From Escherichia phage 1-6af, in sequence record OR983333.1: a stretch of DNA of 64,000 nt; one strand, written 5' to 3'. The notes under the pieces were generated by a model. The model worked only from the letters and a program-made list of their open reading frames with translations, was not told the DNA's origin and did not search any database. Shown here piece after piece: positions 21,249 to 49,525 of the stretch; the first letter of the stretch is position 1; every line of letters starts with the position of its first letter. The position numbers and the translations under genes were made by a program.

Positions 21249-21440
21249 TCACTCTGCCAATGCAGGTATCTCTAATCTCTTAATTGTGAATGCTTTGTCT
21301 GGAAACTTTCGAACTAGCTCCGCTGCTTTGCTAATTGCTAAGTTCTCTGTTTCAAAGATACAGAATTGACTATTCAGCGCGGTAATAGTGGAGCCACCAC
21401 TGAAGATGGCCCAAGATTTATAATAATCACGAACACTCAT
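21249..21440 (-). CDS. hypothetical protein
   Basis: 63-aa ORF starting right after the polymerase C-terminal exon. Confidence 0.35.
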   Translation of the reverse strand: MSVRDYYKSWAIFSGGSTITALNSQFCIFETENLAISKAAELVRKFPDKAFTIKRLEIPALAE

Positions 21441-21448
21441 AACCCACC

Positions 21449-21601
21449 TTAGTGCGTATGCATCCAGTTAAGTCCAATCTGACAATCAGATGCCAGAGGA
21501 CATTCCATGTTCAAGTACTCACCAGCTTTCTTAACGCAAAGCTCAGTGTGCTCTTTGAGTTTCTGTACATCGTTACGATTAACTGAGAACTGGCCCTCAT
21601 C
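21449..21601 (-). CDS. DNA polymerase (family A) C-terminal exon / segment
   Basis: Hand translation DEGQFSVNRN ... GLNWMHTH*; continues exon 1 as ...VIDMH|DEGQ..., restoring an HDE motif-C-like sequence and a T7-like C-terminal ...G.NW...H. Confidence 0.6.
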   Translation of the reverse strand, partial: DEGQFSVNRNDVQKLKEHTELCVKKAGEYLNMECPLASDCQIGLNWMHTH

Positions 21602-22208
21602 CATTTATGTTATTCCCAAATTACTTCGGGTATCGGACTATATCATAACAGCATAGCTAATTTGCTGTTGTTGGCGCTTCGAGGGTTTCCCTGTTAACCC
21701 CCTACTCCCGCAGGATAGTCTCTACACTTTCCACTTTCGAATCCATCTACAAGCGATTCCAAAGCTCACACCAAACCTTTCTGCAAGAGCAACACCAGTG
21801 CATTCATTGTTAAGCCAGAACTCTTTAGCAGCATTCTGTCTTTCTCTGTTTCTGCCAGTGTTTGACTCGATAGCATGTGCACTACCTTCTAAGATTTCTA
21901 GATGGTCAGTATTGCAACAAGCTCTATTCTTGCATTTATGGTTAACTTCATAACCGTCAGGGATGTTTCCAAATTTCTCTTCCATGACGTATCTGTGATA
22001 CATGACCCATTTGCCATTTATCATTTTTCGAAAGTAACCATCTTTATTTAGTTTGTGTGAGATAGGGATGATACATCCTGTGCTAGTTGTTTCTAGCACT
22101 AGATCTTTCTTAGCCATATCACCTCCTAATAGCTTAGCTCGGTATTGCCCTCAACTTAATGGTCGGGTTTCACCGAGTTCACCAACTTTTACATGCACAA
22201 TGAAGTTT
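21602..22208 (-). mobile_element. putative group I intron carrying an HNH homing-endonuclease ORF
   Basis: Exon 1 ends ...AUGCAU; intron nt 11-16 GUGCAU can pair with it (P1) giving a U.G at the splice site; intron ends in G; reading frame is restored across the junction. Confidence 0.5.
21722..22117 (-). CDS. HNH homing endonuclease (intron-encoded)
   Basis: HNH motif YEVNHKCKNRACCNTDHL; own AGGAGG RBS; lies inside the polymerase interruption. Confidence 0.7.
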   Translation of the reverse strand: MAKKDLVLETTSTGCIIPISHKLNKDGYFRKMINGKWVMYHRYVMEEKFGNIPDGYEVNHKCKNRACCNTDHLEILEGSAHAIESNTGRNRERQNAAKEFWLNNECTGVALAERFGVSFGIACRWIRKWKV

Positions 22209-23900
22209 ATGCATATCAATTACCTTAGCACAACGAACCCCATCCCTCTCAATCCACTTGTTAAGGAACATCATAGCATATTTCATAACAACAGCACCAG
22301 CACATTGCAGGAGTGTGTTAAGGGCTTTATGAACCATAACTTTACCAGTGGCATCTCGTCTCATTGTAATCTTACGACCATCAACACCAATCAAGTATCC
22401 TTGAGCAGCCTTTTCTGTCATACGATCAATGAGGATTGCAATACATGGGTTCTCTGCCAAGAAACGTGCTCGCATCACTGAACCTTCGTCAGCCCCACCA
22501 CCTACAATTGAACCAAGCTTAGCATCGCCAGCACCGTAGTTGAATGCATAGATAAACGTTTTAGCGTTGTCACGAGTAGGAAGACCAGCAAGTTTCTGGT
22601 TGTGGGAGTGGATATCACCTTCAAGGAGAATATCACGATACATAATAGCAGAAGCTAAACCACGTTCTGCCAGAGCTTTCTTAGCTGGGTTGTTCTCTTC
22701 AATTGCCTCAGCAAGCATATCCCTACACTCTTTAATGAGGTAGTGAGCGAGCATACGAAGTTCAAGCCCAGAACCATCATACCCTAAGAATACTTCTTTA
22801 CCAGCGGGTATGTAATATTTGTAAGCACCTACAGGTTTGTCTTTCTTCCCCGGTTTACCTTTCTCATAAATTACGTTAGTACCTTTTCGTATATAACAAC
22901 CATCAGGAACAACGTTAGTAATAACGAAAGGACGAGAATGATCACTGTCTGAGTTATAGTCAGACTCAAACAAACTGCGACACTCGTGACCAAACAAACC
23001 ACGGGAGGGAATATTAACCACGATACGATGTTTGAATCGAAAAGTCGGCGTAGCGCAGCTGTTAGCTTCTGCCGAAAGTTTACCATCTTCGCGTTCCTTT
23101 GCTATGAGTCCACTGATAAGACCTAGCCTGTGAGCCGCTACAACGCGTCTCTTAAGCAAACTTCCGACACTCCCTAGCTCACCCCCTAACCCTTCTTCAA
23201 GAGTCTCCTCGAGGTTTGTAGGAGCTGTAGGCCACTTGTTTGAAGTGGCTAGTGCTTTCTTAATCTCATCAAACGTTACAGGATTACGTCGATTCGGGTT
23301 TAATCCCAAACCAAACACGTAAGCCTTCATATAGTTCTTAGTTTTAAACCTAAAATGCTTTTCTAAGAACTTCTTAATATCAGCGTCAACCATCTCGGCT
23401 GTCTGCTTCTGCTTAGCATTTCCTCGCATCCAAGCAGTATACCATGCTTGGTATGTTCCATACTTTCTCATATCTTTCTTAATTTCGAAAGTATTCCAAG
23501 GCTTCTTAGATACGTTAAACTCTGGAGGAAGAAAGCCCTCATCCATAAGAGCTTCTTTAACTCGTGCATCTTTCGATGGGTCAAAGTCTACGTATTCGAC
23601 ACAGGTGAAAGCTCCACCAATGTCTTCTCTCTTCAGCCCAACTCTATCACAATAGGCTTGAGGCCACTTCTGCAAAGCTCCAGACTTCTTAAACGGCTTC
23701 ATATAAGTAGAGCCATCTAATCTCATCTTAGGTAAGAGAGGAATCAACTCTCTGTCAATATTAACAATAATCTCTTTAAGGAGGTGAACATACCACCGAG
23801 CATTTCTTCGGTTGAAACTCACTCCGTGCTTTGCTTGCTTAGAGATTATATCAGCGACAGTCATCTCTGTCAAAAATGGAAGAGCGTCCGGGTTGCTCAC
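22209..23900 (-). CDS. DNA polymerase family A, polymerase-domain exon 1
   Basis: Motif A YDGSGLELRMLAHY and motif B RDNAKTFIYAFNYGAGDAKLG; the open frame runs 10 codons into the intron to a stop at 22179. Confidence 0.8.
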
Positions 23901-25190: not shown

Positions 25191-25508
25191 TTATGATGAG
25201 CTTAAAGCTCCTTTGCGTGCTCCAGCTGCTTTTCCAGCTCGATCACCACTTTTGCCGCCGTTTGAACGGTTTGAGCTGACTGATTCAACACGTAAGTTGC
25301 TTGACGCATTAGAACCTCCAGACTTGACAGCTCGTTTGTGTCCAACGTCTTTACCTCTGACAGCAGCTTTTCCATCGCGCTTTTCAACGATGCGACGTGC
25401 ACGGTGGCGCTGAGCATCTCCGCTCTTGCTCCCAATTCCCGTTTCACCGCGCTTGATCGCAGTCCTTCTTTCTTGTGCATAATCTCTTTTTCCTACATGA
25501 TCTGCCAT
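25191..25508 (-). CDS. basic low-complexity protein (frame uncertain)
   Basis: ATG overlaps the HNH stop (TAATG) with AGGAGA RBS; an alternative overlapping frame 25202..25480 encodes a helical protein. Confidence 0.3.
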   Translation of the reverse strand: MADHVGKRDYAQERRTAIKRGETGIGSKSGDAQRHRARRIVEKRDGKAAVRGKDVGHKRAVKSGGSNASSNLRVESVSSNRSNGGKSGDRAGKAAGARKGALSSS

Positions 25509-25837
25509 TAGATTTCTCCTGATTCTCTTTGATTAAAGGTGTGGATGGCGTGGCAATTAGCACACAATATCCTGCACTTCCTCATCTCTTCTTTTACTTG
25601 AGATAAAGATCTGGTGTGCCCTTTGGAGAGTTCGAATGACTTAGTTAATGGATTTAAATGATCAAACTGAAGAGCAGATGCGTGGCCCTTAAAGCCACAC
25701 TCAGAGCATCCATAGAATGTTTTAACTCTACGAATAAAAGCTAGTTGCCTAACTCTTCTTCTCTCGTTATCTGCCTTTCTCTTATCTCTATTTCCTGGGT
25801 CGGCCCATCTACACGAGTCATTGCAAAACCTCTGCAT
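25508..25837 (-). CDS. HNH homing endonuclease
   Basis: CSECG ... FDHLNP ... CANCH zinc/HNH motifs. Confidence 0.65.
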   Translation of the reverse strand: MQRFCNDSCRWADPGNRDKRKADNERRRVRQLAFIRRVKTFYGCSECGFKGHASALQFDHLNPLTKSFELSKGHTRSLSQVKEEMRKCRILCANCHAIHTFNQRESGEI

Positions 25838-49420: not shown

Positions 49421-49510
49421 TCCAAGAGCCTCTAGCGAGGATGACAGGGTTCGAACCTGCATACTCCAATTACTTCTTTAACGACCGCTTAGAAGGCGGG
49501 GAAGATACAT
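49421..49510. repeat. palindromic tRNA-like intergenic element
   Basis: 13-bp perfect inverted repeat TCTAGCGAGGATG ... CATCCTCGCTAGA enclosing GGTTCGAACC and a CCGC-CTTCTAA-GCGG stem-loop (minus sense). Confidence 0.45.
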
Positions 49511-49525
49511 CCTCGCTAGAAGCTC

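What the first reader, a model, noticed from the sequence alone, without database searches (positions are those of the whole stretch)
21449..23900. DNA polymerase interrupted between motifs B and C by a putative group I intron carrying an HNH gene
The pol ORF stops 10 codons past ...VIDMH and lacks motif C. Downstream, after a free-standing HNH ORF, a short frame encodes DEGQ...GLNWMHTH with a T7-like C-terminus. Joining at 22209|21601 gives ...VIDMH-DEGQ..., an HDE motif-C-like sequence in frame. The 5' exon ends AUGCAU and intron nt 11-16 are GUGCAU, so a 6-bp P1 helix with a U.G at the splice site is possible; the intron ends in G. At 607 nt with a 396-nt ORF it is compact, so the ribozyme core would have to overlap the ORF.
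Basis: partly seen in the sequence, partly recalled or inferred. Interest (0 to 1): 0.7.

Follow-up and report, generated by a model that had tools for sequence, protein, structure and literature searches.

The report
Self-splicing intron splitting phage DNA polymerase
The DNA polymerase gene of this E. coli phage (a phiEco32-like Kuravirus) is interrupted at its catalytic "HDE" motif by a 607-base mobile group I intron carrying its own homing-endonuclease gene; it is a relative of an intron already characterised in T7-like phages, so it is a solid but ordinary finding.

Summary
All features are on the minus strand. Polymerase exon 1 is 23900..22209, the intron is 22208..21602 (607 nt), and exon 2 is 21601..21449. 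An intron-less relative, phage WFI101126, is collinear with the window and breaks exactly at this point (ATGCAC|GATGAG). Joining the exons gives a 614-aa family A polymerase that aligns with T7 DNA polymerase through motif C to its last residue.

The insert is a group I intron of subgroup IA2 architecture. It is homologous at the DNA level (65-69%) to the intron at the same H|DE site in T7-like phages 13a and K1F. Its 131-aa HNH protein is 60% identical, without gaps, to I-TslI of phage PhiI.

On 13 ORF-deleted copies my P1-P10 model pairs in 98.4% of cells, with 18 pairs changed on both sides. One such change is in P1, where the guide sequence follows the host exon (A-U here, G-C in T7-likes).

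Only about 10 of 97 Kuravirus-like records carry the intron, and intron and exon relationships disagree in phage PAS59, which indicates mobility. Splicing itself was not tested.

This is a new member of a known kind.

The parts
22209..23900 (-). DNA polymerase exon 1: GTG start at 23900, 564 codons, ending ...VIDMH (codon CAU).
   Evidence: ORF list. Pfam DNA_pol_A matches up to profile position 334/381. It is collinear at 97% with intron-less WFI101126 up to 22210.
21602..22208 (-). Group I intron of IA2 architecture, 607 nt, from AAACUU... to ...AUAAAUG (omega-G at 21602).
   Evidence: Empty-site comparison. Rfam RF00028 scores 26.2 bits, E=2.6e-4, on 21794..21614. It shares 65-69% nt identity with T7-like polymerase introns. 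Covariation supports the fold.
21449..21601 (-). DNA polymerase exon 2: DEGQ...GLNWMHTH plus stop, carrying motif C Asp-Glu and the C-terminal His.
   Evidence: Pfam DNA_pol_A profile positions 335-380/381. It aligns with the T7 DNA polymerase C-terminus to the last residue. It is 95% identical to WFI101126 from 21601.
22193..22214 (-). P1 and the internal guide. Exon AUGCAU (22214..22209) pairs with GUGCAU (22198..22193), with U.G at the splice site. The P10 guide UUCAUU (22204..22199) pairs with the exon 2 start GAUGAG (21601..21596).
   Evidence: Coordinates. The P1 distal pair is A-U in Kuravirus-like phages and Vp_R1 and G-C in T7-likes, following the host codon. P10 has 2 pairs with changes on both sides.
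22129..22186 (-). 5' half of the core: P3 5' strand GUUGGUG; J3/4 AA; P4 CUCGGU/ACCGAG; J4/5 GAAA; extended P5 hairpin CCCGACCAUUAAGUUGAGGG; J5/4 CAAU; P6 5' CU; P6a 5' CUAU.
   Evidence: P3 has 4-5 covarying pairs and P5 has 2. RNAalifold and single-sequence MFE folding both recover P3, P4 and P5.
21722..22117 (-). Intron-encoded HNH homing endonuclease gene (131 aa) in the P6a loop. It has its own Shine-Dalgarno AGGAGG at 22127..22122 and is in a different frame from exon 1.
   Evidence: Pfam HNH_3 at 7e-12. PHROG 6254 at 2.4e-41. 60% identity, gap-free, to I-TslI of phage PhiI. 45.6% identity to T3 gene 5.3 over residues 6-89. pN is far below pS (0.01-0.13 versus 0.35-0.54) among Kuravirus-like copies.
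21615..21734 (-). 3' half of the core: P6a 3' GUGG (21734..21731); P6 3' AG (21728..21727); P7 GACUA (21720..21716) pairing with UAGUC (21640..21636); P7.1 UCCUGCGGGA; GUA linker; P7.2 GGGGGUU...AACCCUC; P3 3' CGCCAAC; P8 AACAGCA...UGCUGUU; P9 CCCGAA-GUAA-UUUGGG.
   Evidence: P8 and P9 each have 4 pairs with changes on both sides. P7 and P7.1 are invariant in all 13 copies.

Best explanation
The polymerase gene is split by a mobile group I intron of subgroup IA2 architecture, of the PhiI/W31/13a/K1F type, inserted between the His and Asp codons of motif C (H|DE).

**Splicing (inferred by homology).** The gene is transcribed as one pre-mRNA. The intron RNA folds into P1 and P3-P9, with no P2. 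The HNH ORF is looped out of P6a. The 12-nt guide UUCAUU-GUGCAU holds the end of exon 1 (AUGCAU, U.G at the cleavage site) and the start of exon 2 (GAUGAG). An external guanosine attacks the 5' splice site. The freed exon 1 then attacks after the terminal G at 21602. The exons are joined into an mRNA for a 614-aa polymerase.

**Homing (inferred by homology).** The HNH protein, a homolog of I-TslI, is translated from its own ribosome-binding site. It probably cuts intron-less polymerase alleles of co-infecting relatives near this site, so that repair copies the intron in.

**What is shown and what is inferred.** Shown here: the exact boundaries, the empty site, homology to the T7-like introns and to I-TslI, a covarying core, a patchy distribution, and discordance between intron and exons. 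Inferred: that this copy splices and that its endonuclease is active.
For: - **Empty site.** Intron-less WFI101126 and four other intron-less Kuraviruses read ATGCA(C/T)|GATGA(G/A) exactly where the window has the 607-nt insert.
- **Product.** The spliced protein is 614 aa, as in intron-less phages. It aligns with T7 DNA polymerase across AWVHDEIQ / IDMHDEGQ to the C-terminal His. The Pfam profile is continuous at 334|335.
- **Homology.** The intron is 65-69% identical over 83-99% of its length to introns at the same H|DE site in T7-like phages. In the 13a, K1F, JeanTinguely and Bas102 records gp5 is annotated as a two-piece joined CDS.
- **Literature.** PhiI and W31 carry IA2 introns at E. 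coli Pol I site 881 with an HNH ORF in P6a. The related Pf-WMP3 intron, modelled on them, has P7.1 and P7.2 linked by G-U-A and lacks P2 (PMC3428280). The window shows the same architecture.
- **Endonuclease.** The 13a endonuclease is in the same 90% cluster as I-TslI of PhiI. The window HNH is 60% identical to I-TslI, with the same 131-aa length.
- **Covariation.** 54 pairs were counted on 13 copies. 98.4% of cells pair, against 33-47% when partners are slid. 18 pairs change on both sides, and 0 of 500 shuffles reach these values.
- **Independent folds.** RNAalifold independently recovers P1, P3, P4, P5, P8 and P9. The single-sequence MFE of the window copy recovers the same helices.
- **P1 follows the host exon.** The pair is A-U in Kuravirus-like phages and Vp_R1 and G-C in T7-likes.
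- **Splice-site U.** All intron-containing alleles have CAU at the His codon. Intron-less alleles have CAC or CAU.
- **Rfam.** RF00028 gives E=2.6e-4 here. The join-annotated 13a and K1F copies also fall below the gathering score, at 37.9 and 35.7 bits.
- **Mobility.** About 10 of 97 related records carry the intron. PAS59 has SU7-like exons (pS 0.24) but a window-like endonuclease (pN 0.033 against 0.12).
Against: - No RNA data exist for this phage or any Kuravirus-like phage, so splicing is inferred from homology and structure.
- The Rfam score (26.2 bits) is below the gathering score of 50.
- The last three intron bases form an AUG in frame with exon 2, so translation of a separate 51-aa peptide from unspliced RNA cannot be excluded.
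- P6 and P6a are short (2 + 4 bp) and less well supported than the other helices. The J6/7 implied by the model (6 nt) is longer than the 2-4 nt I recall as typical for group I introns.
- P7 and P7.1 never vary, so they are neutral for covariation.
- The 13 sequences are related, so shuffle counts overstate significance. The slid-partner control keeps relatedness; its usual weakness (a structure derived from these same sequences) inflates paired cells more than the both-sided changes, which are 18 pairs here against 1-5 when slid.
Confidence: 0.93

Rival explanations
1. The polymerase is a genuinely split gene. The insert is a decayed or non-splicing intron remnant carrying a homing endonuclease, and the enzyme is assembled from two polypeptides: 573 aa, plus 51 aa started at the AUG at 21604.
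For: An in-frame AUG overlaps the 3' junction in all Kuravirus-like copies and in the Edwardsiella copy. GenBank records annotate two polymerase CDSs and an endonuclease. There is no RNA evidence.
Against: - The ribozyme parts are 98-100% identical in PE006 and PAS59, while the HNH ORF in the same copies has 35-49% synonymous differences. This shows selection on the RNA itself.
- Compensatory changes maintain P1, P3, P5, P6, P8, P9 and P10.
- The guide sequence matches this host's exon.
- T7-like homologs end in AAG or UAG, without a junction AUG, and are reported to splice.
- A weak ribosome-binding context precedes the AUG (GGGAAUAACAUAAAUG).
- The 573-aa product would carry a 9-residue junk tail and lack the catalytic Asp of motif C.
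Confidence: 0.04
2. The insert is removed at the protein level as an intein, or skipped by the ribosome through translational bypassing or frameshifting.
For: Inteins also target conserved polymerase motifs and carry homing endonucleases. The insert sits exactly between two codons.
Against: - The exon 1 frame hits a stop after 9 codons.
- The HNH ORF is in another frame, starting at intron nt 92, and has its own Shine-Dalgarno.
- Pfam found HNH_3, weak zinc-loop and HTH matches, and no intein domain.
- A 607-nt bypass has no precedent that I know of.
- The RNA covariation has no explanation under this model.
Confidence: 0.01
3. The intron splices but is no longer mobile. The HNH protein is inactive or has been put to another use, and the element is inherited only vertically.
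For: No cleavage data exist. The intron is fixed in some lineages (SU7, ECBP2).
Against: - The HNH ORF is under strong purifying selection, with pN 0.01-0.13 against pS 0.35-0.54.
- It is full length in every copy.
- Only ~10 of 97 related records carry the intron.
- PAS59 shows discordance between intron and exons.
- Homologous copies occur in several different phage groups: Autographiviridae, Gordonclarkvirinae and Grimontviridae.
Confidence: 0.15

Closest known systems
Group I (IA2) intron of the DNA polymerase gene (gene 5) of T7-like phages PhiI and W31, encoding HNH homing endonuclease I-TslI (Bonocora & Shub 2004 and 2009, as cited in PMC3428280). The same element is annotated as a joined gp5 in phages 13a and K1F.
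   Same: - The insertion point is the same, between His and Asp of motif C, which is E. coli Pol I site 881.
- The architecture is the same: no P2, ORF in P6a, P7.1-GUA-P7.2.
- DNA identity is 65-69% across nearly the whole intron.
- The endonuclease is the same length (131 aa) and 59-60% identical.
   Different: - The host gene belongs to a different phage lineage: Kuravirus, Gordonclarkvirinae, whose polymerase has separately encoded exonuclease subunits (PMC9965538).
- The guide sequence differs by one base to match the exon (GUGCAU versus GUGCAC).
- P5 is 9 nt longer and P7.2 is shorter.
- The intron ends in AUG, in frame with exon 2.
- Splicing and homing have not been tested for this copy.
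Group I introns with nicking HNH endonucleases in family A polymerase genes of Bacillus phages SPO1, SP82 and Bastille (I-HmuI, I-HmuII, I-BasI) and of cyanophage Pf-WMP3 (I-PfoP3I).
   Same: A group I intron carrying an HNH gene interrupts a conserved motif of a phage family A polymerase. The Pf-WMP3 intron is IA2 with its ORF starting in P6a.
   Different: The insertion site is different: E. coli site 674 in the fingers subdomain, against 881 at motif C. No DNA-level similarity to these introns was seen.
T3 gene 5.3 and phiYeO3-12 gene 5.3, free-standing HNH homing endonuclease genes next to intron-less polymerase genes.
   Same: The protein is homologous to the window HNH: 45.6% identity over residues 6-89 for T3. 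From my recollection of Bonocora & Shub 2009, T3 gp5.3 cuts the polymerase gene at the same position as I-TslI. I could not read that paper here.
   Different: It is free-standing, not inside an intron, and lacks the C-terminal ~40 residues that overlap the ribozyme in the window copy.

Membership tests
Group I intron | P1 helix between the 5' exon end and an internal guide, with U at exon position -1 paired to G. | tested here: met
   AUGCAU pairs with GUGCAU over 6 bp, with U.G at the splice site in all 13 copies. The distal pair covaries A-U/G-C.
Group I intron | Terminal guanosine (omega-G) at the 3' end, and P10 pairing to the 3' exon. | tested here: met
   G at 21602 in the window and in all homologs. 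UUCAUU pairs with GAUGAG over 6 bp, with 2 pairs changed on both sides.
Group I intron | Conserved core helices P3-P9, including the P3/P7 pseudoknot, supported by covariation. | tested here: met
   98.4% of cells pair and 18 pairs change on both sides. 0 of 500 shuffles reach these values, and slid controls give 33-47%. RNAalifold recovers P3, P4, P5, P8 and P9. P7 is invariant, so it is neutral.
Group I intron | Match to the Rfam RF00028 covariance model at the gathering score (50 bits). | tested here: not met
   26.2 bits, E=2.6e-4. Homologs annotated as joined genes are also below threshold: 13a 37.9, K1F 35.7, Aeromonas PT2 39.0 bits. The 396-nt ORF inside P6a and the extra P7.1/P7.2 helices depress the score.
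Group I intron | Guanosine-dependent self-splicing. | not testable with these tools
   This needs in-vitro transcription with GTP, or RT-PCR from infected cells.
Subgroup IA2 | Extra helices P7.1 and P7.2 between P7 and the 3' strand of P3, joined by G-U-A. | tested here: met
   UCCUGCGGGA - GUA - GGGGGUU..AACCCUC at 21715..21681. The criterion is as stated in PMC3428280. P7.1 is invariant. P7.2 was tested only at its two outer pairs: one is invariant and the other varies on one side only (G-C versus G.U).
PhiI/W31-type polymerase intron (I-TslI element) | Insertion between the His and Asp codons of motif C (E. coli Pol I site 881). | tested here: met
   IDMH|DEGQ in the window, AWVH|DEIQ in 13a. 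Site 881 for PhiI/W31 is from PMC3428280. The alignment with T7 DNA polymerase confirms the position.
PhiI/W31-type polymerase intron (I-TslI element) | Sequence homology of the ribozyme and the endonuclease to the characterised element. | tested here: met
   65-69% nt identity to the introns of 13a, K1F and Sekstaphage-1. The 13a endonuclease clusters at 90% or more with I-TslI of PhiI. The window HNH is 60% identical to I-TslI. The PhiI and W31 intron DNA itself was not available.
HNH homing endonuclease | HNH catalytic motif. | tested here: met
   Pfam HNH_3 scores 45.2 bits against a cut-off of 24.8. PHROG 6254, HNH endonuclease, at 2.4e-41.
HNH homing endonuclease | Site-specific cleavage of the intron-less allele, and homing. 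| not testable with these tools
   Only indirect support is available: the patchy distribution, the PAS59 discordance, and pN far below pS.
Intein | One continuous reading frame through the insert, with intein splicing blocks. | tested here: not met
   A stop occurs 9 codons into the insert, and the HNH ORF is in another frame. Pfam found no intein domain.

The most novel reading that the evidence does not exclude
The same intron-plus-endonuclease element has moved between unrelated phage families: T7-like Autographiviridae, phiEco32-like Gordonclarkvirinae and Vibrio Grimontviridae. It did so by targeting the almost universal (A/G)UGCAY|GAUGAR sequence of polymerase motif C. It re-tuned its guide sequence by a single base to fit each host's exon (A-U here, G-C in T7-likes). 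It is still moving among Kuravirus-like phages, as PAS59 shows. On this reading, motif C of family A polymerases is a shared landing site that links the gene pools of otherwise unrelated phages. A more speculative addition: the junction AUG in Kuravirus-like copies might allow exon 2 to be translated separately as a fail-safe.
Probability: 0.6. Interest if true: 0.4.

Novelty: new member of a known kind. Interest (0 to 1): 0.3.

Why it matters
**Annotation.** This phage's closest records (1-6bf, FH3) label all five ORFs here as hypothetical. Related records list two polymerase fragments and an endonuclease. None of the Kuravirus-like records I inspected annotates a joined polymerase CDS. Kuraviruses are being isolated for phage therapy, so a correct gene model for the essential polymerase is useful.

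**Biology.** The finding extends the host range of the PhiI/W31 intron family from T7-like phages to at least two other phage lineages at the identical codon boundary. It also gives a clean natural example of a guide sequence co-adapting to a new exon. It does not reveal a new mechanism.

Tried and rejected
- **Rfam at gathering threshold, whole window.** It found only a tRNA. An E-value scan of the whole window found nothing at E<=0.01. The group I hit appears only when the 1.2-kb region is searched alone, so no other intron was detected in the window at that sensitivity.
- **Primary papers.** I tried to read Bonocora & Shub 2004 and 2009, and they are not held. Statements about them rest on PMC3428280 or on my memory, and are marked as such.
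- **PhiI intron DNA.** I tried to fetch AY769989, and it is not in the collection. The link was made through the I-TslI protein cluster instead.
- **Literature on Kuravirus, phiEco32 or ECBP2 introns.** Searches found nothing. The Kuravirus comparative paper mentions separately encoded exonuclease subunits but no intron.
- **PDB search with the HNH protein.** No hit at E<=1.
- **Alternative P6 pairings.** I first tried CAAGC/GCUUG and a 7-bp CUAAGCU/AGUGUAG helix. I rejected both because they are not maintained in K1F, the Aeromonas copy or the Edwardsiella copy. The 2-bp P6 plus 4-bp P6a model is the one that holds in all copies.
- **Raw identity as evidence of transfer.** The intron is more similar between phages than the exons are, but that could reflect constraint. 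I replaced this argument with the comparison of synonymous and nonsynonymous differences.
- **Promoter and terminator scan of the region.** It gave nothing inside the intron above chance.
Full report
**1. What is in the sequence**

All features lie on the minus strand.
- A 573-aa ORF (23900..22179) matches Pfam DNA_pol_A only up to profile position 334 of 381. It ends ...AKVIDMH followed by nine unrelated codons and a stop.
- A 131-aa ORF (22117..21722) matches Pfam HNH_3 at E=7e-12.
- A 51-aa ORF (21604..21449) matches DNA_pol_A from profile position 335 to 380.

The polymerase profile is therefore cut cleanly in two at 334|335.

**2. Identity of the window, and the empty site**

The region is 99.9% identical to Escherichia phage 1-6bf and belongs to the phiEco32-like phages (Kuravirus, Gordonclarkvirinae). 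Of 97 related records, only about 10 cover 80% or more of the query. The rest match in two pieces, as if they lacked the middle.

Against the intron-less phage WFI101126, the window is collinear at 97% down to 22210 and again at 95% from 21601. WFI101126 reads GATATGCAC|GATGAGGGC. The window reads GATATGCAT|AAACTT...AAATG|GATGAGGGC.

Removing 22208..21602 (607 nt) gives a 614-aa protein, the same length as the WFI101126 polymerase. This protein aligns with T7 DNA polymerase through AWVHDEIQ / IDMHDEGQ to the C-terminal His.

Four further intron-less Kuraviruses show the same uninterrupted site. They have CAC or CAT at the His codon, whereas all intron-containing alleles have CAT, the U needed at the 5' splice site.

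**3. What the insert is**

*Rfam.* The group I model (RF00028) hits 21794..21614 at 26.2 bits, E=2.6e-4, and aligns the hallmark AGACUA ... GAUAUAGUC (P7) segments, P8 and P9. The score is below the gathering score of 50. So are the scores of homologous introns in T7-like phages whose gp5 is annotated as a joined CDS: 13a 37.9 bits and K1F 35.7 bits.

*DNA homology.* A sensitive DNA search with the 607-nt insert finds 63 phage records.
- Kuravirus-like copies are 85-100% identical.
- T7-like Autographiviridae (13a, K1F, Sekstaphage-1, JeanTinguely and others) are 65-69% identical over 83-99% of the insert.
- Further copies occur in Vibrio phage Vp_R1 (Grimontviridae) and in Aeromonas, Edwardsiella and Klebsiella autographivirids.

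In all 15 copies I extracted, the insert lies between the His and Asp codons of motif C.

*Match to the published element.* PMC3428280 states that the PhiI and W31 introns sit at E. coli Pol I site 881 and carry their HNH genes in P6a. It describes its own Pf-WMP3 intron, modelled on them, as subgroup IA2 with P7.1 and P7.2 linked by G-U-A and as lacking P2. The window copy has exactly this layout.

*Endonuclease.* The 13a intron endonuclease falls in the same 90%-identity cluster as "I-TslI [Phage PhiI]". The window HNH protein is 60% identical to I-TslI, gap-free and of the same 131-aa length. It also matches the free-standing gene 5.3 of T3.

**4. Secondary structure and covariation**

I removed the ORF from 13 distinct copies, aligned them (alignment A1) and wrote a P1-P10 model. 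The model was derived from these same sequences, so the paired-cell figures are partly circular; the both-sided changes are the stronger evidence.

| Measure | Model | Control |
|---|---|---|
| Cells forming standard pairs | 98.4% | 33-47% with partners slid 1-3 columns |
| Pairs with changes on both sides | 18 of 54 | 1-5 when slid |
| Shuffles reaching the observed paired-cell, both-sided-change or covariation values | 0 of 500 | n/a |

- Pairs changed on both sides, by helix: P3 has 4, P8 has 4, P9 has 4, P5 has 2, P10 has 2, and P1 and P6 have 1 each.
- P4, P7 and P7.1 are essentially invariant.
- RNAalifold, with no input from me, predicts P1, P3 (7 bp), P4, P5, P8 and P9.
- The MFE fold of the window's own mini-intron gives the same helices, plus a 7-bp P7.2.

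The most telling pair is the distal pair of P1. In Kuravirus-like phages and Vp_R1 the exon is AUGCAU (Met-His) and the guide is GUGCAU. In T7-likes the exon is GUGCAU (Val-His) and the guide is GUGCAC. The guide has been adjusted to this host's exon, which only makes sense if P1 is used.

Immediately 5' of it, UUCAUU can pair with the first six bases of exon 2 (GAUGAG). Together these form a continuous 12-nt guide for both exons.

**5. The endonuclease gene**

- It starts at intron nt 92, in a different frame from exon 1, five bases after an AGGAGG.
- Its last codons supply the 3' strands of P6a and P6.
- Its UAG stop codon is one base from P7.

Among Kuravirus-like copies, nonsynonymous differences are far fewer than synonymous ones: pN 0.01-0.13 against pS 0.35-0.54. 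The non-coding ribozyme parts are 98-100% identical in PE006 and PAS59, while synonymous sites in the same copies differ by 35-49%. Both the protein and the RNA are under selection.

**6. Mobility**

Three observations point to movement of the intron:
- It is present in a minority of related genomes.
- Homologous copies sit at the same codon boundary in different phage groups.
- Phage PAS59 has flanking exons close to SU7 and ECBP2 (pS 0.24-0.27, pN 0.003-0.007), but an endonuclease close to the window's (pN 0.033) and far from SU7's (pN 0.12).

The intron has therefore moved, or been exchanged, independently of the surrounding gene.

**7. Rivals**

*Two-polypeptide polymerase.* The intron's last three bases, AUG, are in frame with exon 2. 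That reading cannot be formally excluded without RNA or protein data. It does not explain the conserved and covarying RNA, and T7-like copies lack the AUG.

*Intein, or ribosomal bypass.* Both are excluded by the reading frames.

**8. Comparison with the known, and novelty**

This is a member of the PhiI/W31 (I-TslI) intron family. It differs in four ways:
- the host lineage;
- one guide base;
- a longer P5;
- a shorter P7.2.

I found no paper that mentions an intron in Kuravirus-like phages. None of the Kuravirus-like records I inspected annotates a joined polymerase CDS.

It is a new member of a known kind. It is useful for annotation and as a tidy case of cross-lineage intron spread, but it is not a new mechanism. 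Splicing and homing in this phage remain to be shown experimentally.

Noticed in passing
window 23873..23845 (-): A perfect 12/12 sigma-70 consensus promoter (TTGACA, 17 nt, TATAAT, with an extended -10 TG) lies inside the first ~18 codons of the polymerase ORF. It is identical in seven Kuravirus relatives and absent in SU7. A transcript from it would start downstream of the annotated polymerase start codon.
   Followed up: partly
The AUG is present in all Kuravirus-like copies and the Edwardsiella copy. T7-like, Klebsiella and Aeromonas copies end AAG or UAG instead.
   Followed up: partly
window 25508..25837 (-): A second, separate HNH-type ORF (109 aa) lies about 1.6 kb upstream of the polymerase. 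It scores 21.0 bits on Pfam HNH, against a cut-off of 21.4. No group I signal was found near it in the whole-window Rfam scans.
   Followed up: partly
window 21249..21440 (-): The 63-aa ORF just downstream of polymerase exon 2 belongs to Pfam family T4_Y13H (E=7.8e-22), a small phage T4 protein family of unknown role.
   Followed up: no
window 49436..49514 (-): This was the only Rfam hit at gathering threshold in the whole window: a tRNA at 29.7 bits, just above the cut-off of 29.
   Followed up: no
L010 (Aeromonas phage vB_AhaP_PT2) 1-49 and 491-1114: This phage's polymerase region holds the motif-C intron. About 450 nt upstream of it lies the 3' end of a second group I intron (RF00028 23.4 bits, cut off at the locus edge). 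The polymerase probably has two introns.
   Followed up: partly
L011 (Edwardsiella phage DT115P1) and L012 (Klebsiella phage RCIP0053), just after the P1 guide: These copies carry an extra hairpin, ACGUCGAGUAAUUGACGU, where P2 would be. The window and the T7-like copies lack P2. In these two copies the ORF stops 7 nt earlier, yet GGUGUAG before P7 is kept as non-coding sequence.
   Followed up: partly
L008 (Escherichia phage PAS59) versus L003 (SU7), L009 (ECBP2) and the window: The exons flanking the intron are SU7-like, but the intron endonuclease is window-like. This is a recombination or homing footprint.
   Followed up: yes
window 22192..22132 (-) (intron nt 17-77): The P3-P5 part of the core alone matches at 80-85% in Rhizobium phage RHph_N3_13, Aeromonas phages phiA047, phiA009, phiA019 and PhAER-3, and inside the primase/helicase gene of Salmonella phage PVPSE1. 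These are probably other group I introns sharing this 5' core.
   Followed up: no
L016 (Escherichia phage ev_rybdy3) 2021-2383: Some intron-less Kuraviruses (ev_rybdy3, ev_rybdy8, EcoN5) have an extra insertion immediately after the polymerase gene that the window lacks; in ev_rybdy3 it is a 363-nt ORF.
   Followed up: no
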